Assembly (NCBI GenBank): GCA_964016885.1
Contig: OZ024760.1
Location: 19,220,001-19,284,000 of the forward strand
Direction of reading: 5' to 3'
DNA from: Eledone cirrhosa
Taxonomy: Eukaryota
DNA: 64,000 nt
Shown: piece by piece, positions 491 through 60,887 of the stretch
Layout: each line of letters starts with the position of its first letter
Position numbering within the stretch: the stretch's first letter is position 1
Notes under the pieces: generated by a model
Seen by the model: the letters and a program-made list of their open reading frames with translations, nothing else
Told to the model about the DNA's origin: nothing
Database searches by the model: none
Position numbers and translations under genes: made by a program

Positions 491-629
491 AACCCTATGT
501 TTATACCCTCCGTATACCGTGTCTTTTATATCGGGAATCTAATTTATTCGGTCCTCAATGTTGCCATTGACTGACCAACGGTCAAAAATAATACAGATAC
601 AATATAGACACAAACACATATATATAGTT

Positions 630-673
630 TATCAAAGTTCTTTCGTTGCACATCTGCAACATCGTCAGTGGTG
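630..673 (-). ncRNA. Type I hammerhead ribozyme motif in the 3' pseudo-LTR (sense to the ORF)
   Basis: CUGACGA-u-GUUGCA/gaug/UGCAAC-GAAA-GAACUU; minimal stem III; stem I weak (cacca/ugaua). Confidence 0.7.
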
Positions 674-903
674 CTATTGTTTCCTCCCGTTACATTGTAT
701 TTTCTACGCCATCTTTATTTAGTCTGTTTATATATTTATTTATTTGTTTATTTTATTTTGTCTTTGCGTTTGCGTGTGTGTATAGTGTTTTGTTTGATGT
801 GTGTTCGTGATTGGGTGACTGTGTATTGGTTAATGTATTCTATCTTTACTAGTGTGTTTATATGTGTTTGTTATTGTGCTTGTGTATGTATTTATTTATT
901 TAT

Positions 904-2133
904 TTATACTTCTCTTAGGTCAGTGTTGTTTGTTTGGGTGTTGTTGTTATTCCATTCATTCTTTCTGTTTAGCCTTGGCCTTCTAAGTTCTATTTCACTG
1001 GCCTCTCTGATTTTCCTATCTGCTGGGTCATTTCTATGTTTAGATATTATTCTAATTTCTATGTTGTCTATGTTACCGTCATGTTGTTGTCTAGCATGTT
1101 CGTATAGTACTGACCCGTTTTTTTTTCGTCCTTTTAGTTCCCCCCAGTGTTGGTCTATCCTTTCACCTATGCTACGAGCTGTCTCGCCTATGTATGTTGT
1201 CATGTTTCTGCAAGTACCCTCTGTACATCTTATGCTATAGACTACGTTTCTAGTTTTACAGTTTATCCGGGGGTTTACCTTACATATGATACATTTCCTA
1301 TTAGTACAGTGGGTTTTCTTAAAAGGGTAGGTTTTGCTGATCAGGGATTTTATGGTAGTTCCTGGCTTTTCTACCACCTTAATCTTTAAGTGGGTCTTTC
1401 TCTGGGCCGTTCTACACTGGTTAGCTAATTTCCCTCCAGGGGTAGCGTCCACAAACATGACACTCTGGTATCTCTGGTTGTCGTACCATGAGCTGGCTTT
1501 CCCTATCTTTTGTCTAGCCCTATCTAAGCTATTCCATGATTTGCTCCTGTATAATTGGCAAATTCCTTTCATGTCCAGTTCTATGAGGGTCTTATACTTC
1601 TCCATGGTTCCTTCGTATACCCTGACTCTGTCTCTTTGGTTGTAGCCAGAGAACTGCATGCAGTTGATGAAGTGTTGGATGTGTCTTTCCATTTTTGTTG
1701 GGTCGCACATGCGGGACACATTCTTCATCACTCGTACCAAATCTGCGATCAGAATATTAAACTTAGCACTACTGGACATTGCTGAGTTTTTGAGTATCAG
1801 GTATTTGGAGGCCATGGGTTTGGCATAGTGTGAGTGGAGAATTTGGGCTCTCTCGTCTATAGTGTTAATCCAGAGTTCTGTGTCTAATACAGGTAGTCTA
1901 TTGTTAGGGTGTTTGGAAGGGTAGTCGATAGTTACAGTTATACTCTGGTGTATGGAATTAGCTATCTGCTGGATGCGTTCCATTGTGCTACGTTCTAAAT
2001 CAAACTTGTTAGTGCTCTCGAGTGGGGGTGTTCTTATAACTATATTGATATCGTCTACATAACGAGAGTACATGATGAGGTCTATGGAGCTCTCACGAAG
2101 GAGATCTTTAAGTCTCCTTTCCCACCATACCAT
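904..2133 (-). CDS. Penelope-like polyprotein, C-terminal part: RT palm/thumb, Cys-rich linker, GIY-YIG endonuclease
   Basis: YSRYVDD, LPVLD, KPMAS and FSGY motifs; CTNRKCIIC...C linker; VVYSIRC...TYIGET..R...H GIY-YIG with E and N residues downstream; the frame stays open upstream through KIYTQNEGAAIGVSIAGDVANLFM (~2134-2230), so the annotated Met is internal. Confidence 0.9.
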   Translation of the reverse strand: MVWWERRLKDLLRESSIDLIMYSRYVDDINIVIRTPPLESTNKFDLERSTMERIQQIANSIHQSITVTIDYPSKHPNNRLPVLDTELWINTIDERAQILHSHYAKPMASKYLILKNSAMSSSAKFNILIADLVRVMKNVSRMCDPTKMERHIQHFINCMQFSGYNQRDRVRVYEGTMEKYKTLIELDMKGICQLYRSKSWNSLDRARQKIGKASSWYDNQRYQSVMFVDATPGGKLANQCRTAQRKTHLKIKVVEKPGTTIKSLISKTYPFKKTHCTNRKCIICKVNPRINCKTRNVVYSIRCTEGTCRNMTTYIGETARSIGERIDQHWGELKGRKKNGSVLYEHARQQHDGNIDNIEIRIISKHRNDPADRKIREASEIELRRPRLNRKNEWNNNNTQTNNTDLREV

Positions 2134-2346
2134 AAAAAGGTTGGCAACGTCACCAGCTATGCTGACGCCAATGGCTGCACCCTCATTTTGGGTGTAGATC
2201 TTCTCGTTGAACTTGAATATGTGGCCCTTTAGGGTAGTTTGATACTACCCCCTATTGCATGTGCGACCATTTTTCTTACCTGATCATTGTTTTGGGGGGT
2301 CCGTATAGCTTTGGTCCACCCAATCCACCTTTCCATGGGAGTCTTT

Positions 2347-4464
2347 TTAGCCATTGAGGTTATGGTGGGGGGGGGGGGGGGGTCTACCTCTTATGGGTCT
2401 ACTAGGGCAGAAACGTCTAAGGTCATGGCTGTCTGGGTAGTCAGTGTCGTAGGTAAGTCTAAGTAGGAGGCCCAGTTCGTCTGTGTCGAGGTCGCAGAAC
2501 TCCACCTCACTCTCAATGATCATCTCCACACATCTTTTCACAGCAAAATCAATGTTAATGGATGGGTACAGTGATACCACATCCATGCTGCCTATTATGC
2601 AGTTAGATAGGTTCCTGTTTTTGTTGCACTCACTGATTATCCTGAGGAGGTCCTCTGTACTGTCACATACATCTGGGGACATCTTGATTATGGGGCGTAT
2701 AACCATTGAGAGAAAGTAGGAGATCCTGTAGTTGCTAGCTATATTTGCTCCGCATACGGGTCTTGTTGGTGGTCCTCTTGTCGAGTCGTCGACTGTCTTG
2801 TGGTCTTTGCGGAGCCCATACAAGGGGGATATGCCATTGTTAGACGCCTGGAAGTTGTTGGCAGTGCGTCTGCTTGGCTTTAGGATGTCGGTCCACATCA
2901 TCATGTGAGCGTTGAGGATTTTCTCTCTCCCATCATGTGTTTGCTGTGCAATTTCGCTCGTGTTGGTGATGTGGGGTTGCATAGCCTTGGTGTAGTTCGG
3001 CATGCTATCTATTGACATCCTACCGGACTTATCCGTGGGTAGACATACTACCTCACCATCCCTTGTGCGCTGCTTGAGACTAACCAAGCCTTCTACAGGT
3101 TTCCTCCCAAGTTGTTGGGCCTCTGGTCTGCTCTGTCTCTTAGTATACCGGTCTACTATTTGTCTAATCTTATTTCTAGCTATGGTGAACTGTGCCTCTG
3201 TCTCGTCATCTATTTGTTGTGGTATGCAAACTCTTTTATTAAAGGGTAACCTCGTAGGATAGATATTACCCATCTTATATGTTTTGTCAGCTGGGTTGAA
3301 AAATAGTTTCTCTAAGGGGTTGTCATTATATCTATCGTCATAGTTGTGTGTGTTGCTATTATTGTTATTATGGTGGTTGTTGTTGTTCCTATCATTAGCA
3401 TTATTATTATTGTTATGATTGCTAGATGTATTGTTGCTGTGATTGTTAGATGTATTGTTGTTATGATTGCTAGGTGTATTGTTGCTGTGATTGTTAGATG
3501 TATTGCTGTTATGATTGCTAGATGTATTGTTGCTGTGATTGTTAGATGTATTGTTGTTATGATTGCTAGATGTAGTGTTGCTGTGATTGTTAGATGTATT
3601 GTTGTTATGATTGCTAGATGTATTGTTGCTCTGATTGTTGTTTACTTCACCGTTATTGTTGTTGTTACTGTTATTTCTACCATTGTGGTTGTTACTTTTA
3701 TTATGTTTCTTGTTTTTGTTGTGTCTATCATTAATGTTCCTACATGTATTATTTCCATTATTACCACTGTGGTTGTTGTTGTTGTTGTTCGTATTGTTAC
3801 CGTTATTACTACTGTGGTCGCTGCTGCTGTGTCTGTAGTTAATGTTTCTATTATTACTATTATTGTGGTTGTTGTTCTGTCTATCGCTAGTATTATTACC
3901 ATTATTACTATTTCTCACTCTCCTGCTATTGTTATTGTTATGGCTGTTATTTCTATACTCAGTTATTGTTTATATTACTACTACCGTTATTATTATTATT
4001 GTTGTTATTGTTGTTTACTTTTGCATTCCAACGTATTTTTGTGAAACACTTTTCCAGCTCTGTTTTGCACTCAATAGGGTTAATCTTTTTGTAGATGGCA
4101 AATTTTGGTGGTAGCTGCAGGATTTGTTGTTCTTGTTCACTGATTAAAGTGTTCCCATAAATATTTACTGTGTGGTCATTGGTAAATTCTTCCGGTAGTC
4201 TTACATCAGTCATACGGATATTGTTGATGTTATCTGGGTATTTTTGAGAATATTCTACTTTCTTTCTTGTAGTTTTTTTTTGTTCATCCATTCTAATTTC
4301 TTATTGAAATGCCTATTGCATTCATTTCGGGTGTATTTCGTTTCACGTCGGATGACGCTCAAGTCATCCCTTTCGTTTGGTGTGGTGAGATTTTGGACTT
4401 CCTTACCGTTAATGCGTTTCTGTCTGTAAAGTTCGTTGACTTTTGTGTATGTTGTTCTTTTCAT
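2347..4464 (-). pseudogene. Frameshifted N-terminal and RT-finger part of the same polyprotein, with an Asn-rich repeat insertion
   Basis: Fragments 4255-4464, 3959-4291 (LQLPPKFA) and 2347-3918 (PTDKSGR, PLYGLRKDHK, PTRPVCGA, SMDVVSLYPSI); frame breaks near 4270, 3960, 2370 and 2240. Confidence 0.85.
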
Positions 4465-4773
4465 ATTAACTGTTATTGTGTGTTTTAGTCGTTCAGCCTA
4501 AGAGAAGTATAAATAAATAAATAGATAAATAAATAAATAAAGACATACACAAGCACAATAACAACAAACACATATAAACACACACTAGTAAAGATAGAAT
4601 ACATTAACCAATACACAGTCACCCAATCACGAACACACATCAAACAAAACACTATACACACACGCAAACGCATGCGCAAAGAAGACAAAATAAAATAAAT
4701 AAAATAAACAAATATATAAACAGACTAAATAAAGTTGGCGTAGAAAATACAATGTAACGGGAGGAAACAATAG

Positions 4774-4817
4774 CACCACTGACGATGTTGCAGATGTGCA
4801 ACGAAAGAACTTTGATA
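4774..4817 (+). ncRNA. Hammerhead motif in the inverted pseudo-LTR
   Basis: CTGACGA 4779-4785, 6-bp stem II, GAAA 4803-4806; reverse complement of 630-673. Confidence 0.7.
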
Positions 4818-5003
4818 AACTATATATATGTGTTTGTGTCTATATTGTTATTTTTGACCGTTGGTCAGTCAATGGCAACATTGAGGACCGATTAAATTAA
4901 ATTACCGATATAAAAGACACAGAAGCGAAAAACCAACCAAACAGTGAGTGTTCTGTTATTAATTCTGGCAATATTGCACAAATATGACCCTCCCCAAGTA
5001 TAA

Positions 5004-6453
<1,450 letters not shown>

Positions 6454-14655: not shown

Positions 14656-14751
14656 CATATCTATCTACCTACCTATCTATCTACTTATCTATCTCTCTAT
14701 CTGTCTACCACCTATCTATCTACCTTTCTATATATCTATGTATCTATCAAC

Positions 14752-14875: not shown

Positions 14876-15204
14876 AATTATATATATATATGTGTGTGTG
14901 TGTTTATGTGTGTATATATATATATGTGTGTGTGTTTATGTGTATATATATATATATGTGTGTGTAGATGTGTGTTTATGTGTATATATATATATATGTG
15001 TGTGTGTTTATGTGTATATATATATATATGTGTGTGTAGATGTGTGTTTATGTGTATATATATATATATGTGTGTGTAGATGTGTGTTTATGTGTGTATA
15101 TATGTGTGTGTAGATGTGTGTTTATGTGTATATATATATATATATGTGTGTGTAAATGTGTGTTTATGTGTGTATATATATATATGTGTGTGTAGATGTG
15201 TGTT

Positions 15205-17842: not shown

Positions 17843-17930
17843 ATTGTTATATTTGGGGAGGGTCATATTGTTGTTATATTGCCAGAAAAAATATAGTAAA
17901 ACACTCACTGTTTCGTTTTCGTTAGTTTTC
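17843..17930 (-). mobile_element. Solo 3' terminus of the Penelope-like family
   Basis: Reverse complement of aaacagtgagtgtt...ctggcaatat...atatgaccctcccca.tataac, compare 4940-5003. Confidence 0.75.
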
Positions 17931-18343
17931 ACTTCTGAACACAGCAAGTGCAGCAAATACTAGGAAACATTCTCTTTAAAGTTCTGACAATTTTACCACT
18001 TCACCTTTTCAACGTTGTACACCTACAGTCCTTTCTAGATTCTTCTAACGGACTGTAACCTTTCTCAACGTAGACATAGCATTAATTTTAATCAAACTAT
18101 CTGACACTTTCTCTGCTCTTATCAATGACATTATATTCGTATTTTGTATCAAGTCTTCTGGTTCACAAATAATTTATTTTTAAACACTTATTACTGTGGC
18201 ATGCATAATTCTTAAGACATAAGACATGAACACAAACGCACACACACTATGTATGTATCTAAGACTTTTTGTACCATTGTTTCTTGTCTTCTTGAACTAT
18301 ATATATGTCTCTCTATCTATCTATCTATATCGATATCTATCTA

Positions 18344-19158: not shown

Positions 19159-19533
19159 AAAGTTATATTTAAATTGTTGGGTTACAACTAGTAAATATTT
19201 ATAACTGATATAAAAGCACTCAACAAGTATTTGGAGTATATTTACGATATTAAATAAATGGAAACTATATTTATAAAACCATATTTATTTCATTATATAT
19301 ATTTCAGGGATATCATATTAACAATATGTTATGCCTTCTTCAGACAAAATACAATATAGACAGTTTTATAGATAAATAGATTTGAACGGTATGTCAAATC
19401 TATTTATCTATAAAACTGTCTATATTGTATTTTGTCTGAAGAAGGCATAACCTATTGTTAATATGATATCCCTGAAATATATATAATGAAATAAATATGG
19501 TTTTATAAATATAGTTTCCATTTATTTAATATC

Positions 19534-19535
<2 letters not shown>
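19158..19535. mobile_element. Fold-back insert in (TA)n with a complete hammerhead on each arm
   Basis: Arms ~19245-19385 and ~19394-19535, 8-nt loop. Confidence 0.88.
19428..19493 (+). ncRNA. Type I hammerhead ribozyme (mirror copy at 19286-19351, minus strand)
   Basis: Stem I uauuuugu/augaaaua; CUGAAGA 19436-19442; stem II agg..ccu; GAAA 19474-19477; palindromic (AU)n stem III; AUA site. Confidence 0.8.
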
Positions 19536-19562
<27 letters not shown>

Positions 19563-24911: not shown

Positions 24912-25105
24912 TGCTGATGATAGCTAACAAGCTTGAAACTAGTACATCGTTCCTGTGTCAGTGTTGAACAAAAAGGTGACGTGGTTGCCTTAACACCGTA
25001 TGGCATAAATTCAGGCTGTTCAGTTTGTTTACAAACGAACAAAGCGACGTTAGCGCCGCTAAACTGATACGTGCATATATGTATGTGTACCTGTATGCAT
25101 ATGTA

Positions 25106-25138
<33 letters not shown>

Positions 25139-25577
25139 GTGCATGCTACTGTACGTCTGTATACATATATGTATGTACGTATACATGCATACTTACATTT
25201 AAGTAAGTGCCATACTAAGAGTGAGAAATGAAATTTCGTTTTCATTTTGTTTCAATTTATCGTTTTCGGTATGCCTAACCGATTTAACTCACTCAATATG
25301 CAAATTAGGCTGCTCAGCCGTTAATTTTCATAAGGAAAGTATATACTTTCGAACGTTCAACTATCTGGCAGATGGGTAAACGGTGCTGATGATAGCTAAC
25401 AAGCTTGAAACTAGTACATCGTTCCTGTGTCAGTGTTGAACAAAAAGGTGACGTGGTTGCCTTAACACCGTATGGCATAAATTCAGGCTGTTCAGTTTGT
25501 TTACAAACGAACAAAGCGACGTTAGCGCCGCTAAACTGATACGTGCATATATGTATGTGTACCTGTATGCATATGTA

Positions 25578-25619
<42 letters not shown>

Positions 25620-26055
25620 CATGCTACTGTACGTCTGTATACATATATGTATGTACGTATACATGCATACTTACATTTAAGTAAGTGCCATACTAAGAGT
25701 GAGAAATGAAATTTCGTTTTCATTTTGTTTCAATTTATCGTTTTCGGTATGCCTAACCGATTTAACTCACTCAATATGCAAATTAGGCTGCTCAGCCGTT
25801 AATTTTCATAAGGAAAGTATATACTTTCGAACGTTCAACTATCTGGCAGATGGGTAAACGGTGCTGATGATAGCTAACAAGCTTGAAACTAGTACATCGT
25901 TCCTGTGTCAGTGTTGAACAAAAAGGTGACGTGGTTGCCTTAACACCGTATGGCATAAATTCAGGCTGTTCAGTTTGTTTACAAACGAACAAAGCGACGT
26001 TAGCGCCGCTAAACTGATACGTGCATATATGTATGTGTACCTGTATGCATATGTA

Positions 26056-26097
<42 letters not shown>

Positions 26098-26533
26098 CAT
26101 GCTACTGTACGTCTGTATACATATATGTATGTACGTATACATGCATACTTACATTTAAGTAAGTGCCATACTAAGAGTGAGAAATGAAATTTCGTTTTCA
26201 TTTTGTTTCAATTTATCGTTTTCGGTATGCCTAACCGATTTAACTCACTCAATATGCAAATTAGGCTGCTCAGCCGTTAATTTTCATAAGGAAAGTATAT
26301 ACTTTCGAACGTTCAACTATCTGGCAGATGGGTAAACGGTGCTGATGATAGCTAACAAGCTTGAAACTAGTACATCGTTCCTGTGTCAGTGTTGAACAAA
26401 AAGGTGACGTGGTTGCCTTAACACCGTATGGCATAAATTCAGGCTGTTCAGTTTGTTTACAAACGAACAAAGCGACGTTAGCGCCGCTAAACTGATACGT
26501 GCATATATGTATGTGTACCTGTATGCATATGTA

Positions 26534-26568
<35 letters not shown>

Positions 26569-27007
26569 GTGCATGCTACTGTACGTCTGTATACATATAT
26601 GTATGTACGTATACATGCATACTTACATTTAAGTAAGTGCCATACTAAGAGTGAGAAATGAAATTTCGTTTTCATTTTGTTTCAATTTATCGTTTTCGGT
26701 ATGCCTAACCGATTTAACTCACTCAATATGCAAATTAGGCTGCTCAGCCGTTAATTTTCATAAGGAAAGTATATACTTTCGAACGTTCAACTATCTGGCA
26801 GATGGGTAAACGGTGCTGATGATAGCTAACAAGCTTGAAACTAGTACATCGTTCCTGTGTCAGTGTTGAACAAAAAGGTGACGTGGTTGCCTTAACACCG
26901 TATGGCATAAATTCAGGCTGTTCAGTTTGTTTACAAACGAACAAAGCGACGTTAGCGCCGCTAAACTGATACGTGCATATATGTATGTGTACCTGTATGC
27001 ATATGTA

Positions 27008-27051
<44 letters not shown>

Positions 27052-27487
27052 CATGCTACTGTACGTCTGTATACATATATGTATGTACGTATACATGCAT
27101 ACTTACATTTAAGTAAGTGCCATACTAAGAGTGAGAAATGAAATTTCGTTTTCATTTTGTTTCAATTTATCGTTTTCGGTATGCCTAACCGATTTAACTC
27201 ACTCAATATGCAAATTAGGCTGCTCAGCCGTTAATTTTCATAAGGAAAGTATATACTTTCGAACGTTCAACTATCTGGCAGATGGGTAAACGGTGCTGAT
27301 GATAGCTAACAAGCTTGAAACTAGTACATCGTTCCTGTGTCAGTGTTGAACAAAAAGGTGACGTGGTTGCCTTAACACCGTATGGCATAAATTCAGGCTG
27401 TTCAGTTTGTTTACAAACGAACAAAGCGACGTTAGCGCCGCTAAACTGATACGTGCATATATGTATGTGTACCTGTATGCATATGTA

Positions 27488-27529
<42 letters not shown>

Positions 27530-27649
27530 CATGCTACTGTACGTCTGTATACATATATGTATGTACGTATACATGCATACTTACATTTAAGTAAGTGCCA
27601 TACTAAGAGTGAGAAATGAAATTTCGTTTTCATTTTGTTTCAATTTATC
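24912..27649 (+). mobile_element. Tandem array of a 472-480-bp hammerhead-containing unit (non-LTR retrozyme-like), about 5.7 copies
   Basis: CTGATGA cores at 24914, 25386, 25864, 26342, 26816 and 27296; units differ almost only in the internal (TA)n length; flanked by TA tracts. Confidence 0.92.
25379..25423 (+). ncRNA. Minimal type I hammerhead, representative of the six copies in the array
   Basis: Stem I aacggug/caucguu; CUGAUGA; u-AGCU-aaca-AGCU-u; GAAA; palindromic ACUAGU; GUA site. Confidence 0.88.
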
Positions 27650-48502: not shown

Positions 48503-49194
48503 GAAAACAAATAACGAAACGAAATTAAATTTCGTTTCGCTTCTAACTCACTTTTGTATGACTGACGCTTAAACAATTAAGTTAAAGTGTACATTTACAT
48601 ATGTATACGGAAGTATTAGTATGCATATAAATACACACATGTATACATATGTACATGTACTCAGCTTTTCACTAGACACTTTACATTGAGTGTCAGCTAG
48701 TCTTTATGTAACCACACAGACGGACCGGGTTTTAGAGTCATACGAGTTTTCAAGGAAACACATTTCCTCTATTCTCCAGAGGGCCAGACAGGAATATTGG
48801 ACTAGTTTCGATGTTATTACATCTCATCAGCAATATTTACCCATCTTCCGGCTTCTCTGGAGAATTGTAAAAGCACATATCTGATATGTGCTTTTACAAT
48901 TCTCCAGAGAAGCCGGAAGATGGGTAAATATTGCTGATGAGATGTAATAACATCGAAACTAGTCCAATATTCCTGTCTGGCCCTCTGGAGAATAGAGGAA
49001 ATGTGTTTCCTTGAAAACCCGTATGACTCTAAAACCCGGTCCGTCTGTGTGGTTACATACAGACTAGCTGACACTCACTGTAAAGTGTCTAGTGAAAAGC
49101 TGAGTACATGTACATATGTATACATGTGTGTATTTATATGCATACTAATACTTCCGTATACATATGTAAATGTACACTTTAACTTAATTGTTTA
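48503..49194. mobile_element. 625-bp fold-back (312-bp arms, 1-nt centre at 48882) of a hammerhead retrozyme related to the 478-bp array
   Basis: Arms 48570-48881 and 48883-49194 with few mismatches; extra tail 48503-48569. Confidence 0.92.
48927..48971 (+). ncRNA. Minimal type I hammerhead (mirror copy at 48793-48837, minus strand)
   Basis: Stem I aauauug/caauauu; CUGAUGA 48934-48940; stem II gaugu/acauc; GAAA 48955-48958; ACUAGU; GUC 48962-48964. Confidence 0.92.
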
Positions 49195-49406
49195 TATATA
49201 TATGAATATATATATATGTTGTTATACCTTGGGAAATTCAGAAACGAAATATATATATATATGAGTATATATGAATATATATATATATGAGTATATATAT
49301 ATGAATGTATATATATATATGAATATATATATGTGTGTATATATAATATGAATATATATATATGTGTGTATATATATATGAGTGTATATATATATGAATG
49401 TATATA

Positions 49407-49452
<46 letters not shown>

Positions 49453-49480
49453 TATATATATATATGAATATATATATATA

Positions 49481-49518
<38 letters not shown>

Positions 49519-49533
49519 TATATATATATATGA

Positions 49534-49564
<31 letters not shown>

Positions 49565-50439
49565 CACATATATATATATATGAATGTATATATGTGTGTA
49601 TATATATATATGAATGTATATGTGTTTATATATATATGAATGTATATATGTGTGTGTGTATATATATATGAATGTATATATGTGTGTGTATATATATATG
49701 AATATATATATGTGAATGTATATGTGTGTACATATATATGAATATATATATGTGTGTGTATATATATGAATATATATATGTGAATGTATATGTGTGTACA
49801 TATATATGAATATATATATATGTGTGTACATATATATGAATATATATATGTATATGTATATATATATGTGTGTACATATATATGAATATATATATATATA
49901 TGTATATATACATGTATATATATGTGTGTATATATATGGATGTATATATATGTGTATATACATATACACGCATTAGTGTTACTAAAACAAACAGTATTTG
50001 GTAGAAAAATGCTTACCCCATTATTTTGTTTATAATCAAGTAATAAAAAAGTAACTCGAGCTCTAAAGTACACAGCGACATCTCTGTTAATTTTTTTAAA
50101 TGTTTCTATTGAATATGAAGAAGTATTTCGTGGTTTCTAAGTAATTTCCCACAGGATTATTTTATTAAAAGGCCTTATCAATGTTAACAGTACACAGGTT
50201 TAAATGTAGAAGATGAAACGTTGGCTAATATAGAACAAAAGACAAGCTCACACCAGAGGGATTTTAAGTTTGTTTTTCCCTCCAAATAAAGTAGCATTTC
50301 TAATATAATGACAACTTGTAGAGAGAGGAAAAAAGGTGGGTTATTCTGGCGTTTGTAGGGTGAGGGAGAAATGTGGGTTATACCGGTGCTTTGCATTATT
50401 ACGCTTGTGTTTTGGGAGCATAGCTTTATGTAAGTACTT

Positions 50440-50800
50440 AAAAGTATGATGGAGGATTGTCTGGATAAACATAAACACTTTAAAAGAAGCAGCTTTGTAT
50501 CTTAAAACCAGGGGAGCTTTTAGTTGGTTTGAAACATAACTTAAAAAAGGTTTGATTTGATAAATATAAACACTTTAAAACAAACAACTTTGTATCATAG
50601 AACCAGGGGTGGTTTTAGTTGGTTTGGAACATAACTTAACAAAGGTTCTTAAATAAAATTATGATGGAAGATTGTTTGGATAAACATAGATACTTTAAAA
50701 AAAAGAACTTTGTATCATAAAACCAGGGGTGGTTTAGTTGGTTTGGAACATAACTTAACAAAGATTCTTGGAAAAAATAGAACCAGGAGCGGTTTCCGCT
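50440..50800. repeat. Degenerate ~100-120-bp tandem repeat, 3 or more copies
   Basis: gataaacataaacactttaaaa...ctttgtatc.taaaaccagggg...tagttggtttg.aacataactt. Confidence 0.8.
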
Positions 50801-51529
50801 AGTTTGGTATCAAAAGTGTTAACGACTTACTGTTATATAAGAACAAAACTATATGAAAGAAATATGAACGCTTCTTGTAAAACATTGCTTGATAACTGGA
50901 ATTCCTACCTTTTCAATATATCTAATGAATCATGACAACTTGGGTTAAATTAGGTGACCTGGTTCCCTAAACTAATTTATATATATTGCGGATATACAGT
51001 GTGGGCGATGTAATAGCGTTTTCTTTTATGTAAAATATTCTGAGTACTAGCAAAGAATTCTTCACTTGTCAACACAGTACGAACGTATAAATAATTTCTT
51101 CAGTAAAAAAAGGTCATCTGCATTCCACCATGTTGCCGACACACCATTGTCGATGTTGTTGATGATGATGTTGATGATGATGATGATAATATTGTTCATG
51201 TTGATGATGATGATATTGTTGATGATAACGACGATGACGATGACGTCGATGGTGATGGTGATGATTTCTTTTTTTTCTTTTAAAAAAAAAGTAAAGAATA
51301 TTCTATTCGTTTACCGCTTTCACTCATTAGACTGCGACCATTCTGGGGCACCGCCTTCATTTAGTTAATCTTATTCTCTCTCTCTCTCTCACGTGTGTGT
51401 GTCTGTGTATATTTGCGTGTTTTTATACACAATATAGGTAACATGACCATGCCAAAATGTGAACACACACAAAAACAAGATGGCGTAGGACAACAAAGGA
51501 GAGGCACAAAACAAAGAAAAGAATCCCCA

Positions 51530-51572
51530 GTCACTGAAGAGGTCACAGAATGTGTGACGAAAGAACTTTGAC
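51530..51572 (+). ncRNA. Hammerhead of the pseudo-LTR type (GAAAGAACUU)
   Basis: Stem I guca/ugac; CUGAAGA 51534-51540; stem II gucaca/ugugac; GAAA 51559-51562. Confidence 0.78.
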
Positions 51573-51876
51573 ACTATATGAACAACCGTCTGGTTGTGGA
51601 ACCAACCAACCGGAAATTTATAAATTTAAAAAAAAAAAAGAATTTTTTAATTTTTTTAATTTTTATTCTTTTGTTTATAATAACTTGGAGTGAAAGCACT
51701 GGTGCGTGTGTTTCTTATTGGCAACATGACCCCCCCCCCAAAAAAAAAAGTATAACAATATATATATATATACATATATACATACACAGACAGACGCACT
51801 CTCGCTCATACAACTTAACCACTCACACGAGATCATTTTCATAATTTCGGCTCTCCCTTTTTTCCTCTCCTACCTC

Positions 51877-51915
<39 letters not shown>

Positions 51916-51939
51916 CACGAATATGTCTATTTATCTGTC

Positions 51940-51982
<43 letters not shown>

Positions 51983-52113
51983 GAATATGTCTATTTATCT
52001 GTCTATGTGTATATATATATATATACGAATATATGTGTCTACTTATCTATCTATATGTGTGTGTGTATATATATATATATATATGTGTGTGTGTATATAT
52101 ATATATATGTGTG

Positions 52114-52164
<51 letters not shown>

Positions 52165-52165
52165 A

Positions 52166-52196
<31 letters not shown>

Positions 52197-52353
52197 GTGT
52201 GCTTACATACATATATATCTACGTGTGTATAGATAAACTCACCCGTTCATATATATAATACATACATATATTTCTCTATATACAAGAAGCTATAACACGT
52301 ATTTATCTTTTCATCAAGCAATTATTTTCCCACGTGAAGAATATAACTCACCA

Positions 52354-53793
52354 AGAACTGTACCTGCTATCATTTTCCAAGGGCATCAATCAAAACAGTA
52401 ATGTAGCATTTACATTTAGTACACATGCTGTGTGAATCAGTGTATGTGTGTTGTGTGTTGTGTGTTGTGTGTTGTGTTGTGTGTTGTGTTGTGTTGTGTT
52501 GTGTGTTGTGTTGTATGTTGTGTTGTATGTTGTGTTGTATGTTGTGTTGTATGTTGTGTTGTATGTTGTGTTGTATGTTGTGTTGTATGTTGTGTTGTGT
52601 TGTATGTTGTGTTGTATGTTGTGTTGTATGTTGTGTTGTATGTTGTGTTGTATGTTGTGTTGTGTTGTGTTGTGTGTTGTGTTGTGTGTTGTGTTGTATG
52701 TTGTGTTGTATGTTGTGTTGTATGTTGTGTTGTATGTTGTGTTGTATGTTGTGTTGTATGTTGTGTTGTATGTTGTGTTGTATGTTGTGTTGTATGTTGT
52801 GTTGTATGTTGTGTTGTATGTTGTGTTGTATGTTGTGTTGTGTGTTGTGTTGTGTGTTGTGTTGTATGTTGTGTTGTATGTTGTGTTGTATGTTGTGTTG
52901 TATGTTGTGTTGTATGTTGTGTTGTATGTTGTGTTGTATGTTGTGTTGTATGTTGTGTTGTATGTTGTGTTGTATGTTGTGTTGTATGTTGTGTTGTATG
53001 TTGTGTTGTGTTGTATGTTGTGTTGTGTGTTGTGTTGTGTGTTGTGTTGTGTTGTTGTGTGTTGTGTTGTGTTGTGTGTTGTGTTGTGTGTTGTGTTGTA
53101 TGTTGTGTTGTATGTTGTTGTGTTGTATGTTGTTGTGTTGTATGTTGTGTTGTATGTTGTGTTGTATGTTGTGTTGTATGTTATGTTGTGTTGTGTGTTG
53201 TGTTGTATGTTGTGTTGTATGTTGTGTTGTATGTTGTGTTGTATGTTATGTTGTATGTTATGTTGTGTTGTATGTTATGTTGTGTTGTATGTTATGTTGT
53301 GTTGTATGTTATGTTGTGTTGTATGTTATGTTGTGTTGTATGTTATGTTGTGTTGTATGTTATGTTGTGTTGTATGTTGTGTTGTATGTTGTGTTGTGTT
53401 GTGTGTTGTGTGTTGTGTTGTGTTTTGTGTTGTGTGTTGTGTTGTGTTTTGTGTTGTGTTGTGTGTGTTGTGTGTTATGTGTGTGTGTTGTGTGGTTATT
53501 GATACTTGGAGAGTCTATCTCTGTGTGTGTGTGTGATGGTACTAGGAGAGACTGTATCTCTGTATTTGTGATTGTGTGTGATGAAATTTGGAGTCTGTAT
53601 CTGTGTTTGTATGTTTGTGTGTATGTGTGTGTGACTGTGTATGTGTTTGTGTTTGCGTGTGTGATTGTTGATAATGGGAGAGTCTGATCTGTGTGTGTAT
53701 TGTGTGAGAACTGAACCTGCTATCATTTTCCAAGGGCATCAATCAAAACAGTAATGTAGCATTTCCATTTAGTACACATGCTGTGTGAATCAG
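52354..53793. repeat. (TGTTG/TATGT)n satellite bracketed by an 87-bp direct repeat
   Basis: 52354-52440 and 53707-53793 are near-identical. Confidence 0.9.
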
Positions 53794-53809
53794 ATGCTGT
53801 GTGAAAGAT

Positions 53810-54755
53810 GACAACAGCCGCAACTAGAGCTTCCACGTCAGGAACAACAGCAGCAACATCATCAACAGCAGCAACAATAACTGCCGCAACGACAGCAACA
53901 GCAACACCACCAATAGCAACCACAGATGCAACAACAGCAAGCAACAACAACAGCAGCAAGCAACCACAGACAACAACAACAACAACAACAGCAACACCAC
54001 CAATAACAACAGCAAGCAACAACAAGCAACAACAGCAAGCAACAACAAGCAACAACAGCAAGCAACCACAGAGACAACAGCAACAGCAACACCACCAATA
54101 GCAACCACAGATGCAACAACAGCAACAACCAGAGACAACAACAACAACAGCAACACCACCAACAACAACAGCAAGCAACAACAGCAAGCAACAACAGCAA
54201 GCAACCACAGAGACAACAACAACAACAACAGCAACACCACCAATAGCAACCACAGATGCAACAACAGCAACAACAGCAGCAACCAGAGACAACAACAACA
54301 GCAACAGCAACACCACCAATAACAACAACAGCAAGCAACAACAGCAAGCAACAACAGCAAGCAACCACAGAGACAACAACAACAGCAACAGCAACACCAC
54401 CAATAGCAACCACAGATGCAACAACAGCAGCAACCAGAGACAACAACAACAGCAACAGCAACACCACCAATAACAACAACAGCAAGCAACAACAGCAAGC
54501 AACAACAGCAGCAACCACAGAGACAACAACAACAGCAGCTACAACAACCAGAGACAACGACGACAATAGCAACAACAGCCACAAAGACACCAACAACAAC
54601 AATAACAACAACAGCAGCTACAGACACCAACAACAATAACAAAAACATATTCAGCTACAACAACAGAAAAAAGCAACAATAACTACAACCGCTACAACTA
54701 CAACATTGACAACAACAAAAGCAACAGCCACAACGACACAAACAATAACAACTGC
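53810..54755. repeat. (CAA/CAG)-rich compound repeat
   Basis: Direct inspection. Confidence 0.9.
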
Positions 54756-54774
54756 AATTTTTTGGGGGAGGGGA

Positions 54775-54936
54775 AAGTTGATTATATCGACCCCAGTACG
54801 TTACTGGTACTTTATTTTATCGACCCCTTGAGGACAAAAGGCAAAGTTAACCTCGGCGGGATTTGAACTCAGACCGTAAAGGGCCGTAACTCTATGCCGC
54901 AAAGCATCGCCTCCGACCCTCTACTGATACTGCCAT
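54775..54936 (-). mobile_element. tRNA-derived SINE
   Basis: B-box and head in reverse orientation. Confidence 0.85.
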
Positions 54937-55029
54937 CATACAAGTACCATATCTGTAGCAGAATCTCTGCAATTCTAGCCTTCCTAATTTAGTCCTCGTT
55001 AAATTTCCACGGAATTATATTTCTTTTTT

Positions 55030-55950
55030 TCCTCCACCACCACCATCATCTCCTCCACCATCACCTCCTCCACCATCACCTCCTCCACCATCACCTCCTC
55101 CATCATCACCTCCTCCACCATCACCTCCTCCACCATCACCACCACCACCAACTCCTCCACCATCACCACCAACTCCACCATTACCACCACCACCAACTCC
55201 TCCACCATCACCTCCTCCATCATCACCTCCTCCACCATCACCTCCTCCACCATCACCACCACCACCAACTCCTCCATCATCACCTCCTCCACCATCACCT
55301 CCTCCACCATCACCTCCTCCATCATCACCTCCTCCATCATCACCTCCTCCACCATCACCACCACCACCAACTCCTCCACCATCACCACCAACTCCACCAT
55401 TACCACCACCACCACCACCTCCTCTACCAACACCACCTTCTCCAACACCACCACCATCTCCACCACCATTACGCCGCCACCGTTACCACCACCACCACCG
55501 CCACCACCACTAGTATCAGCACCACCAACACCCCCACCCCTCTAATTCCACCACCACCACCACTGCCACCCCCCTAACTCCACCACCACCACTGCCACCC
55601 CTCTAACTCCACCACCACCACTGCCACAATCATCATCTGTATCACCTCCTCCAAAACAATAGCATCATCACTGTCACCACTACCATCACCACCACCAACA
55701 ACACCACCACCACCAACAACAACACCACCACCAACAACACCACCACCAACAACACCACCCCTCTAACTCCACCACCACCACTGCCACAATCATCATCTGT
55801 ATCACCTCCTCCAAAACAATAGCATCATCACTGTCACCACTACCATCACCACCACCACCAACAACACCACCACCACCAACAACACCACCACCAACACCAT
55901 CACCATCACCACCGTCACCGTCACCGCCACCACCACCGCCACTGCCGCTC
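55030..55950. repeat. (CAC/CTC/CAT)n compound repeat with an internal duplication
   Basis: Direct inspection. Confidence 0.9.
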
Positions 55951-56194
55951 TCAGATGGAATGAAATAAGAACTAGTTTCAAATGTCGAGTAGAATACTGA
56001 AATGCATTTCGTCTTCCATAATGAGGAAAACTCTGTCTTTGATTAGATTGGAAGTAGAAGAAGGCGGAGAAGAAGAAGAGAGGAATATATATGACATGAA
56101 TAAAAAAAAAAAAACTAAACAAATACCAGATTCAACTCCCACACATTCTCTTTTTAATTAAGTTGCTAAAATATCGGCCGCTCTCTAATGAGAA

Positions 56195-56815
56195 CATCTG
56201 GTGTTCTCTGTCCCATGTTCCCGAACCAATTTGCCTCCCTATTTTACTGTGATCAGGATTCAGATGACCAGCTGCAAGAGCGAACCCCGTGAAGGGATGT
56301 GAAGTGAAGTGATGTGAAGTGATGTGAAGGGTTGTGAAATGAGGTGAACTGGTGTTCTGACGATCCGAGGGTGGTGGGAACATCTGACATTCTCTGTTCT
56401 ACGTCCTTACGTCACCGGAGTCAGGATTTAGATCGCCAGCTGCAAGAACGAACCCTGTGAAGTGATGTGAAGTGAAATGAACTGGTGTTCTGACGATCCC
56501 AGAGTGGTGGGAACATCTAGCAATCTCTGTTCTACGTCCCTAACTTACCGTATCCAGGATTTAGATGGCCTGTTGCAAGGACGAACCTCGTAAAGAGATA
56601 TGATGTGATGTGAAGGGTTGTGAAATGAACTGGTGTTCTGACGATTCCAGTGTGGTGGAAGTATCTGGCATTTTCTGTTCTACGTCCCTAACTTACCGAA
56701 GTCGGAATTTAGATGGCCATCTACAAGAACGAACCCCGTGAAGGGATGTGAAGGGTTGTGAAATAAACTGGCATTCTCTGTTCTCGAACGAAACTATGTC
56801 CCTAACTTACCGTAG
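56195..56815. repeat. Degenerate ~130-150-bp tandem repeat, about 4.5 copies
   Basis: ctctgttctacgtccctaacttaccg...ggatttagatggcc...gcaagaacgaaccc.gtgaag.gatgtgaa. Confidence 0.85.
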
Positions 56816-56917
56816 TCACGATGGAAGTGGTTGTCCGTAAAAGCACGAGCCCTATCGAAGTTCACTGTCATCTTGTCGAATTTATAGTTATAAAAATATA
56901 TATTATAACCATTATAT

Positions 56918-57266
56918 CGGTGAATTGGCAGTATCGGTAGAGGGTTGGACGCCATGCTTTCTAGCATAGTTACGTCCCTTTACAGTCTGAGTTCAAATCC
57001 CGCCGATGTTAACTTTGCCTTTCATCCTTACGGGGGTCGATAAAATAAAGTACCAGTAATGTACTTGGTAATTGCTGGCCTTGTGCCAAAAAGTAAAAAT
57101 AATTATTACATATATATACACATACATATATAATATGTATATGTAATAATTATTTCTACTTTTGGCACAAGGCCGGCAAATCTCCAATACATTACTGGTA
57201 CTAAAATAAAGTACCAGTAATGCACTGGGCAATTGCTGGCCTTGTGCCAATAGTAGAAACAATTAT
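56918..57266 (+). mobile_element. Full-length SINE (56918-57108) followed by an inverted pair of tail fragments
   Basis: A- and B-boxes present; tail fragments at ~57148-57202 (minus) and ~57203-57266 (plus). Confidence 0.88.
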
Positions 57267-58200
57267 ATATATTTCCCCGTTCTCCTCTTTCACTCACACG
57301 CTCAGTGTCTGGAAGAAAGTGGCTGGGCTCTGACAGAAATAATACCCTCACTCCAACAAGTCCATCAGGAGTTACGGCTGTATACAAACATCATGAAGGT
57401 GGTCTTTACGGCTACTCTCGGGTCTCGAATAATGCCCCACCCTCTTATTAATGTTTTCATATTTTTCCACCACATCCCCTCTTATTGCAAACCCCTCGCT
57501 TATTTAATTTAGCTAAACTATCTCCAGCGAAATGTTATTTTAAGTAGTAGCATTCCTGCGAGAAGTAATTTTCAAAATGTATCATCAGTAGCTTGTCTCC
57601 CGTAGTCTAACAGACCCTGATACAAAAACAACAAAAAAGACTATGACACAGCGCTTCCCTCCCAGACAAAAACATTAAATTAACAATTCCCACTTTATTC
57701 TATTTATAATTAATTATAATTAATTCAAATTTTAAGTTTGTCTTCCCTGCAAGCTTTGAAAATAATAAACTATTATTACAATGGTTTATATTCTTTTCCC
57801 CTCGCTACGGGTGTAATTTTAATGAATTGAAGTAAATTTCTAGTCCTTACTACACTTAGTGTTTTAATACATATATGACTGTTTGCTTTTCTTGCAAAGG
57901 AGGTCCCCCGCATTCTTTATTGAAAATAAACAGACTGGCTTAAATAGACAAACTGTCAAAATCTGAAATATAAACATTGAACACAACATCAATTCTAGAA
58001 TTACACACGCATTACACACACATACATATATAGACACACTCACACAGACATATATAAACACACTCACACAAACTCACACTTACACATTCAAACACACAGT
58101 CACAGACACACACACAGACACATACACACACAGACACATACACACACGTGCATTTCACACACTCGCACAGAGATATGTATAATATATATCATATATGTAT

Positions 58201-58243
<43 letters not shown>

Positions 58244-58355
58244 GAATTAATGCAAACTGTTTTCTTTTAATTTGGTGGGTGGCAGTATGGATAGAGCGTC
58301 AGACACCATGCGTTGTGGTATATAGTTACATCCCTTTACGTTATGAGGTCAACAC

Positions 58356-58388
<33 letters not shown>

Positions 58389-58661
58389 ACCAAACTATTA
58401 GCAGAAAAGGATGGACAGAGAAACGAACTCCCTTCTCTGAATGAACATGTGTGAAAATTAATTTTTCTTCCCCTTTTTATTTTTATTATTATTATTATTT
58501 GTACAAATATGCAGCTTAACAATATTCTGCATATATGCAATTGACAATGCATACAATACTGAAACCGGTATTGCAAATAGATTAATGTTTTGATATTTCA
58601 CTGAAAAAATCTCTTCAGCATTTTCTACTGAAAAGAAAAAACTCTTTCCTTTCTACAATTT

Positions 58662-58703
<42 letters not shown>

Positions 58704-58812
58704 CTCCAGTTCCCCAGTGAATTAACAACCCAACAAGGAACTGGGCATATCAGAGTATTGACAATATCATACACCTAAACAACATATGTACTTGTCTATA
58801 CCATACTAATTC

Positions 58813-58867
58813 ACTGCCTGAAGAGGTCACAGCCAAAGATGGCTGTCACTGAAATATATATAGCAGT
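58813..58867 (+). ncRNA. Type I hammerhead in a solo insert (58702-58912) within (TA)n
   Basis: Stem I acugc/gcagu; CUGAAGA 58818-58824; stem II ggu-acagcca/uggcugu-acu; GAAA 58851-58854; (AU)n palindrome; AUA site. Confidence 0.85.
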
Positions 58868-59405
58868 AATAAACGAAGCTAAATTTTAATCATTTGACTT
58901 TTATTTAACTTTATATATATATATATAATGTAATGTGTATATATATGTAAGTATGGTTTGAAACAACGAGCGAGTTTGAAATTAGAAATAGAAGCTTCTG
59001 CCGTATTTTTTTTAATAAAATTTTTTTAGCCTCGTAGTGATGTTTAGAACCCTCTAAGGAATCGAAAAAGATGAGTATTAATGTACAAGTGATATGTATA
59101 TATATATATATATATGCGTGTGTATATATATATGTATATATATATATATATATATACAGTATTTTCCGTAGTGTTGTAATATAATATATTCCGATGAAAT
59201 GACAGTTGATAATAACATTGAAATATTGAATGTCTGCATAACTAATACTTTGTAGATAGCAGCTGTTTTCAGGTTATGTAACTGTTATAGAAACACGTGT
59301 CAATAAATTCCTTTTAACTAAACTGTATCCATTAAAATCCTTCTCTCTATATATATATATGCGTGTGTGTGTGTGTACATATATATATGTGTGTGTGTAT
59401 GTATG

Positions 59406-59451
<46 letters not shown>

Positions 59452-60067
59452 GTTCCTTTTAATTAGTTATATAATCAATATATAAAACATATGTTTCCTA
59501 GATTTCGCTGACCAGCATTCAAACTATTCAAGACTGCGTAATAACTGTAGGGTGTAAACACACTTATTTAATAATATATCATTATATAGCTATGATATAT
59601 ATATATACACATATATACATATATATATTTATATGAATCTATGAGTGTATGTATGCATATATATATATATATATAAGGTCTGCTTATATTAGGGATTGTG
59701 TTTCGGGGAAGACCAAAAATCTGTTTTATGTTCATTTTCTTTATCCGCTCTCCTGAACATGAGATTTCCACAATCAAAACTTATTATATATATATATCTA
59801 TAAATAGTGTTGAAAATAATATGAGTACACACGATGTATTTATAATAAGGAGAAAACATAGGGAAAAAAATTACTTAAATTTGATTGTTAATGAGCCGGA
59901 GGAGAGGAAATTAACTTGTAACAGCAACAAACTTTAGGAATACATATACTTTGGTTTTCTCACGGTAACTCTGACTAAAGAATCGTTAGTGTTTGCTATT
60001 TTACTAAGGGGACAGCAGCTGTGTGACAACAACTCCTTTAATTCGAGTCAAGTAATTCTGGTAATAT

Positions 60068-60222
60068 AATAATTGTTTCTACTTTTGGCACGAGGCCAGC
60101 ATTATCTCAGTGTATTACTGGTACTTTATTTTATCGACCCCGGCGGGATTTGAACTCAGATCATAAATGGCCGTAACACTTTGCTGCAAAGCGTGGCGTC
60201 CGACCCTCTACCAATACTGACA
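60068..60222 (-). mobile_element. SINE, internally deleted
   Basis: Homology to the full-length copies. Confidence 0.85.
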
Positions 60223-60479
60223 AATAATAATAAACATGTATAATACACTCTACTCTACTCTGGTATTGAGCACTTTTCCTCATATTTGCAAACCTAATAT
60301 ATATATATATATATATACGTGGGAGAGTAAAAAATCGGAGAATAGACCGTTAAAACATGTTTATTTAAAATATCACCTACGTACGTTTCGCTACTTGGCA
60401 AATAACTATATGTATCACCTATCCCACCTTTTTTTCTCTTTACGTAAATACGTAAATACTATATATTTACGTAAATACG

Positions 60480-60516
<37 letters not shown>

Positions 60517-60537
60517 AATAGAGAGAGAGAGAGAGAG

Positions 60538-60677
60538 GAAAAGAGTCAGGACCCCGACGTCTGAGCTAGATTTCGACAGCTAGATCCGAACTCTTTTCCT
60601 ATTACCCACTCTACTACCGTAAGTATCGAGTACGCTGGTGTGTTATGGTCCTCCTGGTTCTTTACCACACTTTCTTT

Positions 60678-60680
<3 letters not shown>
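60538..60680 (+). mobile_element. Third member of the 12.9-kb fold-back family
   Basis: gaccccgac.ctgagct arm plus cctattacccactctactac... tail running into (TA)n. Confidence 0.8.
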
Positions 60681-60713
<33 letters not shown>

Positions 60714-60716
<3 letters not shown>

Positions 60717-60887
60717 AAAAAGAGATGAAATCGAAAATGCAACTGAAGTCTTATTTTTTTTTTAAATATATATATTTAAAAAAAAAATAAGACTTCAGTT
60801 GCATTTTCGATTTCATCTCTTTTTCTTTATACTTTCACTCGTGTAGGACACCTCGGTTATTTTTCATTTTGTAAAAAAAAACCTCAC

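What the first reader, a model, noticed from the sequence alone, without database searches (positions are those of the whole stretch)
48503..49194. Structural covariation between the 625-bp fold-back element and the 478-bp array
Seen: both read agatgggtaa-[stem I]-CTGATGA-[stem II]-GAAACTAGT(A/C)-[stem I']-tcctgt. Stem I is aacggtg/catcgtt in one and aatattg/caatatt in the other; stem II is agct/agct versus gatgt/acatc. The distal helix atggg/cctgt with a taa bulge is conserved, and the 3' tails (ttaag...catac..agtgag...aatttcgttt...ttgttt) are homologous. The 48.9-kb copy extends into a long rod (ttctccagag/ctctggagaa). Inference: the fold is under selection, the bulge probably contacts loop II, and one family integrates either as tandem arrays or as hairpins.
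Basis: partly seen in the sequence, partly recalled or inferred. Interest (0 to 1): 0.8.

Follow-up and report, generated by a model that had tools for sequence, protein, structure and literature searches.

The report
Self-cutting ribozyme repeats, likely octopus
Two related non-coding jumping elements, probably from an octopus, carry a hammerhead self-cutting RNA. One landed as a tandem array and the other as a mirror-image hairpin, both known habits of Penelope-type retrotransposons, so this is a new example of a known kind.

Summary
Both elements carry a type I hammerhead ribozyme (core CUGAUGA...GAAA, cut site GUC or GUA). All 12 differences in stems I and II fall as 6 two-sided pair changes, and 5 of the 6 keep pairing (null 72 of 200,000); core plus helix III is 16/17 identical. 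Helix III is one pair plus a palindromic loop (ACUAGU), the known form that cuts as a dimer. The elements are collinear at about 65% identity and end at nearly the same point, in (TA)n.

The array fits a non-LTR retrozyme. The hairpin has the known Penelope-like (PLE) layout: an inverted 5'-truncated copy, a one-sided tail and a (TA)n target. Six other short fold-backs in the window share that layout, and a PLE nearby has it in part.

Corrections: the bulge is TA; the array has U.U at the base of stem II; the distal helix is invariant; the array has a rod too; covariation outside the ribozyme is not significant. Only two distinct sequences could be aligned, with no read or expression data. Verdict: new member of a known kind.

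The parts
48503..49194 (.). Whole fold-back insertion: 625-bp near-perfect palindrome plus a 67-nt one-sided tail, between (TA)n-rich flanks
48503..48881 (-). Long arm, sense on the minus strand: 379-nt 5'-truncated copy of the element, ending in (TA)n
48503..48569 (-). Tail present on this arm only; holds a 13-bp hairpin; homologous to the array's 3' end
48883..49194 (+). Short inverted arm, 312 nt, lacks the tail and joins TATATA at the internal TTTA site where the tail begins; 3 differences from the long arm
48918..48976 (+). Type I hammerhead: distal helix, TA bulge, 7-bp stem I, core CTGATGA at 48934-48940, 5-bp stem II with AATA loop, GAAA at 48955, palindromic ACTAGT, predicted cut after C48964
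   Evidence: (Rfam HH9 31.8 bits, E 6.5e-7, below the gathering score 52)
48788..48846 (-). Mirror copy of the same hammerhead in the long arm
48900..48992 (+). Rod closing the ribozyme (TTCTCCAGAG 48900-48909 with CTCTGGAGAA 48983-48992)
   Evidence: (z -5.4)
24912..27649 (+). Tandem array, 478-nt unit, 5.7 copies; 5' end truncated 2 nt before the core, 3' end after the tail; both ends in TA-rich microsatellite
25370..25428 (+). First complete array hammerhead (identical copies at 25848, 26326, 26800, 27280; truncated one at 24912): GUA cut site, U.U at the base of stem II, AACA loop
25355..25441 (+). The array's counterpart of the rod (GTTCAAC 25355-25361 with GTTGAAC 25435-25441)
27588..27649 (+). 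3' end of the array, homologous to the fold-back's tail; the same sequence lies inside every unit
519..5004 (-). Context: Penelope-like element (RT with YVDD, CxxxxCxxC linker, GIY-YIG-like end; two frames, 2347-3969 and 904-2244) with an inverted terminal copy (4580-4920), a one-sided 84-nt tail ending in (TA)n and minimal hammerhead-like cores; not the same sequence family

Best explanation
The array and the fold-back are insertions of two diverged sister families of a non-coding, hammerhead-bearing retroelement (non-LTR retrozyme type) that borrows the reverse transcriptase and GIY-YIG endonuclease of a Penelope-like element. SHOWN: shared ribozyme with two-sided stem changes, collinearity, nearly the same 3' end, (TA)n targets, PLE-type inverted layout. 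FROM THE LITERATURE on this kind of element: tandem transcripts cut as double hammerheads, are ligated to circles and are copied back into DNA. INFERRED here: (1) an array transcript folds neighbouring ribozymes together through the ACUAGU palindromes and releases 478-nt monomers; a lone ribozyme is nearly off, which protects the template; (2) the PLE enzyme nicks (TA)n and starts copying at the tail's 3' end; (3) if it keeps rolling round a circle, or reads a multimer, the product is an array; (4) if it stops early, the cDNA snaps back, is copied up to the TA-like site where the tail begins and is joined to the other target end, giving arm + inverted arm + one-sided tail. The fold-back is then a dead-end copy.
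For: Stems I and II: 6 of 12 pairs changed, all on both sides, 5 still pair; 72 of 200,000 random placements keep as many pairs; 18 of 500 shuffles reach it, and slid controls pair 35-47% against 97%. Core + helix III 16/17 identical against stems 12/24. Two array units constrained as a swapped double hammerhead fold at -178.5 kcal/mol, as two single hammerheads at -162.3, unconstrained at -179.5. The unit as a circle folds at z -8.1, 0 of 60 shuffles (the internal TA hairpin contributes). Collinearity after the ribozyme scores 102 against a shuffle maximum of 63 (0 of 300). Both insertions run through the cut site, so the template was uncut or religated. Layout: 6 of 9 fold-back centres examined (this one included) have one end at (TA)n and a 66-80-nt tail then (TA)n at the other; a seventh, whose centre I mis-set there, fits with a 38-nt tail; background 6.4% and 22.8%. 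PMC8557442 describes the inverted 5'-truncated copy, a one-sided tail and (TA)n bias for PLEs. A PLE lies in the window with an inverted terminal copy and one-sided tail.
Against: Rfam scores are below threshold. The array ribozyme lacks G10.1-C11.1, and its free fold shifts stem I (pair probabilities 0.19-0.85); 8 of 9 predicted Xenopus retrozyme dimers did not cleave in vitro. No sequence link to the window's own PLE (117 and 245 of 300 shuffles as high; tails 49 and 102 of 500), so the helper is unidentified. The tail (67 nt) is longer than the 30-40 bp described. 2 of the 9 fold-backs do not fit the layout, and the PLE's short end is not in (TA)n. Covariation outside the ribozyme is not significant. 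No cleavage, expression or read data.
Confidence: 0.72

Rival explanations
1. The fold-back is simply the 5'-truncated 3' end (pLTR plus tail) of an autonomous, protein-coding PLE with a canonical hammerhead, and the array is a retrozyme or satellite born from a related pLTR. No circle is needed for the hairpin.
For: Only about 35 nt lie upstream of the ribozyme in the fold-back and they do not align significantly with the array (928 of 1000 shuffles as high). The window's PLE has the same inverted copy and tail. The 2026 preprint finds retrozymes to be sisters of pLTRs.
Against: Metazoan PLE hammerheads are mostly minimal, with short stem I and long stem II (PMC4209133), as in the window's PLE; these two are canonical, like retrozyme ribozymes. 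The upstream stretch pairs with the downstream one to close a rod in both elements.
Confidence: 0.3
2. The array grew at the DNA level (unequal crossover or slippage from a dimer) rather than by rolling-circle reverse transcription; the ribozyme is a relic.
For: The preprint proposes local amplification by unequal crossover. The array ribozyme has U.U at the base of stem II. The internal TA run varies between units.
Against: The 3' end coincides with the fold-back's 3' end and the 5' end is truncated inside a unit, as for one retro-insertion. Apart from the TA run the units are identical, which fits a single event but also a recent DNA expansion.
Confidence: 0.2
3. The palindrome is an assembly or library artefact (fold-back chimera).
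For: Arms are 99% complementary around a 1-nt centre; no read support was obtained.
Against: Three substitutions between the arms; one arm ends exactly at an internal TA-like site fused to (TA)n; the same layout recurs in unrelated families, in two copies of one family at different loci (10108-10225 and 32635-32734, the latter with 6 mismatches in 48) and in the PLE at 88.5% arm identity.
Confidence: 0.06
4. They are DNA elements (fold-back, MITE-like or Helitron-like), and the matching stem changes come from DNA template switching in short inverted repeats, not from selection on RNA.
For: Palindromes, 3' hairpins and tandem arrays also occur in DNA transposons (recalled, not tested).
Against: The unpaired catalytic core is better conserved than the stems; one change makes a G.U pair, which DNA copying would not give; the motif works on one strand only; the ends are asymmetric rather than terminal inverted repeats.
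Confidence: 0.05

Closest known systems
Non-LTR retrozymes of metazoans (PMC7229834; bioRxiv 10.64898/2026.07.22.740005)
   Same: Non-coding tandem units, each with a type I hammerhead; low GC; predicted self-paired circle; PLEs in the same genome.
   Different: Unit 478 nt (150-450 in the first paper, 51-972 in the second), with an internal TA hairpin; inserted in (TA)n with no visible target duplication; a sister copy is inverted rather than tandem; expression and circles not shown here.
Axolotl HHR_Amex1 and HHR_Amex2 (PMC7229834)
   Same: Amex1 has a one-pair helix III with a palindromic tetraloop and cuts well only as a dimer; Amex2 has a U.U mismatch at the base of helix II. The array ribozyme has both traits, the fold-back the first.
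   Different: No sequence comparison was made; different phylum.
EN+ Penelope-like elements, insertion layout (PMC8557442)
   Same: Inverted 5'-truncated copy next to the 5' end, tail on one end only, (TA)n targets, hammerhead in the terminal repeat.
   Different: No RT/EN frame in either element; tail 67 nt rather than 30-40; both arms truncated at the same base, giving a perfect palindrome; canonical rather than minimal ribozyme.
Rfam Hammerhead_HH9 (RF02275, clan CL00010)
   Same: Same topology; UA bulge before stem I, A-rich loop II and GUC aligned to the model consensus.
   Different: Scores 31.8 and 18.5 bits against a gathering score of 52; helix III much shorter; no 3' bulge strand.

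Membership tests
Type I hammerhead ribozyme | Core CUGANGA ... GAAA ... NUH | tested here: met
   CTGATGA, GAAA, GTC (fold-back) or GTA (array)
Type I hammerhead ribozyme | Helix I open-ended and flanking the core; helix II closed | tested here: met
   7-bp stem I plus distal helix; stem II 5 bp or 4 bp; 35 of 36 cells paired
Type I hammerhead ribozyme | G10.1-C11.1 pair closing helix II | tested here: inconclusive
   Met in the fold-back, not met in the array (T.T). The same departure is reported for axolotl HHR_Amex2
Type I hammerhead ribozyme | Helix III, or a palindromic loop allowing a dimeric helix III | tested here: met
   ACUAGU self-duplex -4.8 kcal/mol; swapped dimer of two array units within 1 kcal/mol of the free minimum
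Type I hammerhead ribozyme | Tertiary contact between the helix I bulge and loop II | tested here: inconclusive
   Bulge 2/2 and loop 3/4 identical, aligned to the HH9 bulge and loop; the contact itself cannot be computed
Type I hammerhead ribozyme | Self-cleavage at the predicted site | not testable with these tools
   Needs in vitro transcription
Rfam RF02275 Hammerhead_HH9 | Score at or above the gathering threshold (52 bits) | tested here: not met
   31.8 and 18.5 bits; no Rfam hit at gathering level in the window
Non-LTR retrozyme | At least two consecutive tandem units, each with a complete type I hammerhead | tested here: met
   Met by the array (5 complete ribozymes); the fold-back is not tandem and does not meet it by itself
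Non-LTR retrozyme | Short, non-coding, GC below 50% | tested here: met
   478-nt unit; GC 0.26-0.30 in the 2-kb bins holding the array; the only frames of 120 aa or more that touch it run out of the flanking microsatellite
Non-LTR retrozyme | Monomer predicted as a highly self-paired circle | tested here: met
   -159.6 kcal/mol, z -8.1, 0 of 60 shuffles; partly due to the TA hairpin
Non-LTR retrozyme | Expressed as linear and circular monomer RNA | not testable with these tools
   No RNA data were obtained
Non-LTR retrozyme | Long target-site duplication when present | tested here: inconclusive
   Both ends lie in TA-rich microsatellite, so none can be discerned
Autonomous EN+ Penelope-like element | Single frame with RT and GIY-YIG endonuclease | tested here: not met
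   None in the array or the fold-back; present only in the separate element at 519-5004
PLE-type insertion (non-autonomous) | Inverted 5'-truncated copy at the 5' end, tail on one end, microsatellite target | tested here: met
   Fold-back anatomy against the description in PMC8557442; tail longer than described
PLE-type insertion (non-autonomous) | 3' sequence shared with an autonomous partner | tested here: inconclusive
   No similarity to the one PLE in the window; no genome was available to look for others

The most novel reading that the evidence does not exclude
The 'tail' is a cis-acting start signal inside a circular RNA. A PLE enzyme primes there from a nicked (TA)n and either rolls (array) or snaps back and is resolved at the element's own TA-like site (perfect palindrome with a one-sided tail). 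The pair would then be anatomical evidence that canonical-hammerhead retrozymes are moved in trans by PLE machinery, and that PLE tandem and inverted insertions are two fates of one intermediate. The 478-nt circle would be a minimal substrate for the unsolved PLE mechanism.
Probability: 0.4. Interest if true: 0.6.

Novelty: new member of a known kind. Interest (0 to 1): 0.37.

Why it matters
Which enzyme moves animal retrozymes is argued from co-occurrence and phylogeny (PMC7229834; the 2026 preprint), and how PLEs make tandem and inverted insertions with a tail is stated to be unresolved (PMC8557442). Here a retrozyme-type array and a sister element with the full PLE insertion signature share a 3' start point and target, which gives a short testable substrate. 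The ribozyme, the dimer mechanism, the bulge-loop contact and both insertion layouts are already described, so the interest is moderate.

Tried and rejected
Rfam at gathering level: 0 hits in the window. The microRNA-precursor hits at E-value level are artefacts of the palindrome and TA runs. No host genome was held.

The strict family pattern found 0 matches in metagenome and in viral contigs. None of the 142 matched either element by blastn at E 0.01; 9 of 142 passed a stem filter and 8 of 142 matched only the core part of a model built from the two ribozymes. I treat them as unrelated hammerhead-like motifs and did not pool them into a covariation count. That model found no further member in window 1-48500 or 49200-64000.

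No read evidence for the palindrome centre or for family variants was obtained.

Rejected: covariation across the whole element (P 0.08 and 0.47 outside the ribozyme; RNAalifold on the MAFFT alignment missed the rod); a motif common to the tails of different fold-backs (only the H-A pair of 28 comparisons stands clear of shuffles); the window's PLE as demonstrable parent. Pfam at E 0.001 gave nothing for the two PLE frames; at E 5 it gave RVT_1 at E 0.015 for one of them. No tRNA genes. Earlier scan notes: none.

Full report
Setting. The window is microsatellite-rich animal DNA (about 46% masked as simple repeats). The best relative of a reverse-transcriptase frame at 904-2244 is an Octopus vulgaris protein (64% identity, E 2e-154; 47 hits among 3968 candidates), so the host is probably an octopus; this is an inference from one hit. 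No whole genome was available.

The observation. The motif is there 8 times, with none expected by chance. The fold-back (H) is a palindrome, 48570-48881 / 48883-49194, with 3 mismatches, and its left arm runs 67 nt further. The array (A) is 24912-27649, 5.7 copies of 478 nt, identical except for an internal TA run. H and A are collinear over the length of H: ribozyme score 62 (shuffle maximum 31 of 1000), everything after it 102 (maximum 63 of 300), tail 38 (0 of 1000); the 35 nt upstream are not significant (928 of 1000). Identity is 136/209 aligned columns in the 5' part and 77/94, with 27 internal gap positions, in the 3' part. They are sister families, not one family.

It is a type I hammerhead. 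Rfam HH9 aligns over its full length with the bulge, core, loop II and GUC in register (E 6.5e-7 for H, 0.014 for A), but below its gathering score. In stems I and II, 6 of 12 pairs differ, all on both sides, and 5 still pair; random placement of 12 changes keeps that many pairs in 72 of 200,000 trials. The tool's own controls agree (18 of 500 shuffles; slid partners 35-47% paired against 97%), although the structure was drawn from these two sequences. Core plus helix III is 16/17 identical, bulge 2/2, loop II 3/4, stems 12/24. Outside the ribozyme similar hairpins appear at similar places, but pair retention is not above chance under sequence-only alignment (30 of 47, P 0.08; 24 of 46, P 0.47).

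ACUAGU allows one pair and a 4-nt palindromic loop in a monomer (pair probability about 0) but a 6-bp duplex between two ribozymes. Two array units constrained to the swapped form fold at -178.5 kcal/mol, against -162.3 for two single forms and -179.5 unconstrained. This is the described norm: most metazoan type I hammerheads have a 1-2-bp helix III with a palindromic loop and cut as dimers (PMC4209133); axolotl HHR_Amex1 has this helix III and HHR_Amex2 the U.U mismatch (PMC7229834). The loop I-loop II contact is established for canonical type I ribozymes (PMC6155905). In H the two ribozymes are on opposite strands, so a transcript carries one ribozyme and, if read through, its complement. 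H is therefore probably an inactive end product (inference).

The insertion layout. Both elements end 3' at nearly the same homologous point, within about 8 nt, followed by (TA)n. A starts 2 nt before a core with TG microhomology. H's short arm stops at an internal TTTA where the tail begins and is fused to TATATA. This layout is common in the window: of 9 palindrome centres examined, 6 (H included) have one end at (TA)n and a 66-80-nt tail then (TA)n at the other, 2 do not fit, and 1 was mis-centred and fits with a 38-nt tail when read directly. Only 6.4% of non-TA positions have (TA)5 within 10 nt. At 519-5004 a Penelope-like element (YVDD, CxxxxCxxC linker, a GIY-YIG-like stretch read by eye; one of the 47 relatives carries PF00078 and PF01541, the latter recalled as GIY-YIG) has an inverted terminal copy at 88.5% identity with an 84-nt tail ending in (TA)n and minimal hammerhead-like cores; its other end is not in (TA)n. 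PMC8557442 describes this: partial tandems, an inverted 5'-truncated copy, a 30-40-bp tail at one end attributed to endonuclease resolution, (TA)n bias linked to the Zn-finger linker, and an unresolved mechanism. PMC4209133 already notes pairs of minimal hammerheads 100-700 bp apart on opposite strands. The window's PLE is not detectably related to H or A, so the helper remains unknown.

Spread. The long arm of H is held, wholly or in part, by 15 of 23 listed runs; the 10 with shares of 0.22 or more come from 6 studies and 6 coded organisms.

Mechanism. Most likely (0.72): non-coding retrozyme-type RNAs, cut as double hammerheads and circularised, are copied by a PLE enzyme from a nick in (TA)n, starting at the tail. 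Continued copying gives arrays; early stop with snap-back gives palindromes. My rough odds for the steps: ribozyme fold selected in the family's history 0.9; PLE-type retro-insertion 0.8; a circle as template for the array 0.55; snap-back for the hairpin 0.5. The main rival is that H is the truncated end of an autonomous PLE (0.3). The rivals are not all exclusive of the best explanation.

Literature seen. bioRxiv 10.64898/2026.07.22.740005: parts 1-3 of 5, abstract through discussion, supplements not seen. PMC7229834: parts 2-4 of 6, supplement unreadable. PMC4209133: parts 1-2 of 4 and a term search of 2 supplementary files, one file not searched. PMC8557442, PMC6155905, PMC8969392, PMC6962438: passages only; the last reports 235 hammerhead 1 matches in the giant squid genome. 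Nine searches listed no paper on octopus retrozymes or on a canonical-hammerhead retrozyme with an inverted PLE-type copy; the library lacks most subscription papers, and the unseen supplements may hold cephalopod examples.

Verdict. Observation confirmed, interpretation partly supported, new member of a known kind, interest 0.37. The part worth pursuing is the shared 3' start point and the retrozyme-PLE anatomical link.

Noticed in passing
window 30581-32171 (+): A second tandem array, 591-nt unit, 2.7 identical copies, 3' end in (TA)n at an internal ATATAT site. Each unit has a hammerhead-like variant: TTGATAA (the U3-A8 core covariation of PMC4209133), a helix II with a long inserted arm, GAAA and a 10-nt palindrome ACTACGTAGT before C. 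Circular fold z -5.4 on this strand against -1.1 on the other. No hammerhead hit in Rfam.
   Followed up: partly
window 519-5004 (-): Penelope-like element, Neptune/Nematis-type linker, coding region in two frames with an Asn-rich repeat at the start; inverted terminal copy with tail; minimal hammerhead-like cores at 668 (-) and 4779 (+).
   Followed up: partly
window 10108-10225, 12883-13010, 19237-19542, 32635-32734, 38057-38262, 60714-60827, 37477-37926: Short fold-backs of several unrelated families with a one-sided tail and (TA)n ends (37477-37926 has a long spacer and fits only partly). 10108 and 32635 are one family with nearly the same centre, just before a CTGATGA core; 19237 also has a hammerhead-like core in each arm.
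   Followed up: partly
window 51500-51580 (+): Lone minimal hammerhead-like motif resembling that of the window's PLE, probably a truncated terminal repeat of a related family.
   Followed up: no
window 17846-17937 and 38347-38478: Solo copies of the PLE's tail region, 78-82% identical.
   Followed up: no
window 11929-12041, 14749-14877, 39711-39908, 41824-41985, 56918-57107, 61097-61293, 63415-63596 and others: A dispersed 100-190-bp repeat in more than a dozen copies at 80-92% identity; SINE-like by appearance, not tested.
   Followed up: no
L038, L048, L065, L079, L095, L112, L127, L137: Metagenome loci with hammerhead-like cores and the same ACTAGT palindrome, unrelated in flanking sequence.
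   Followed up: no
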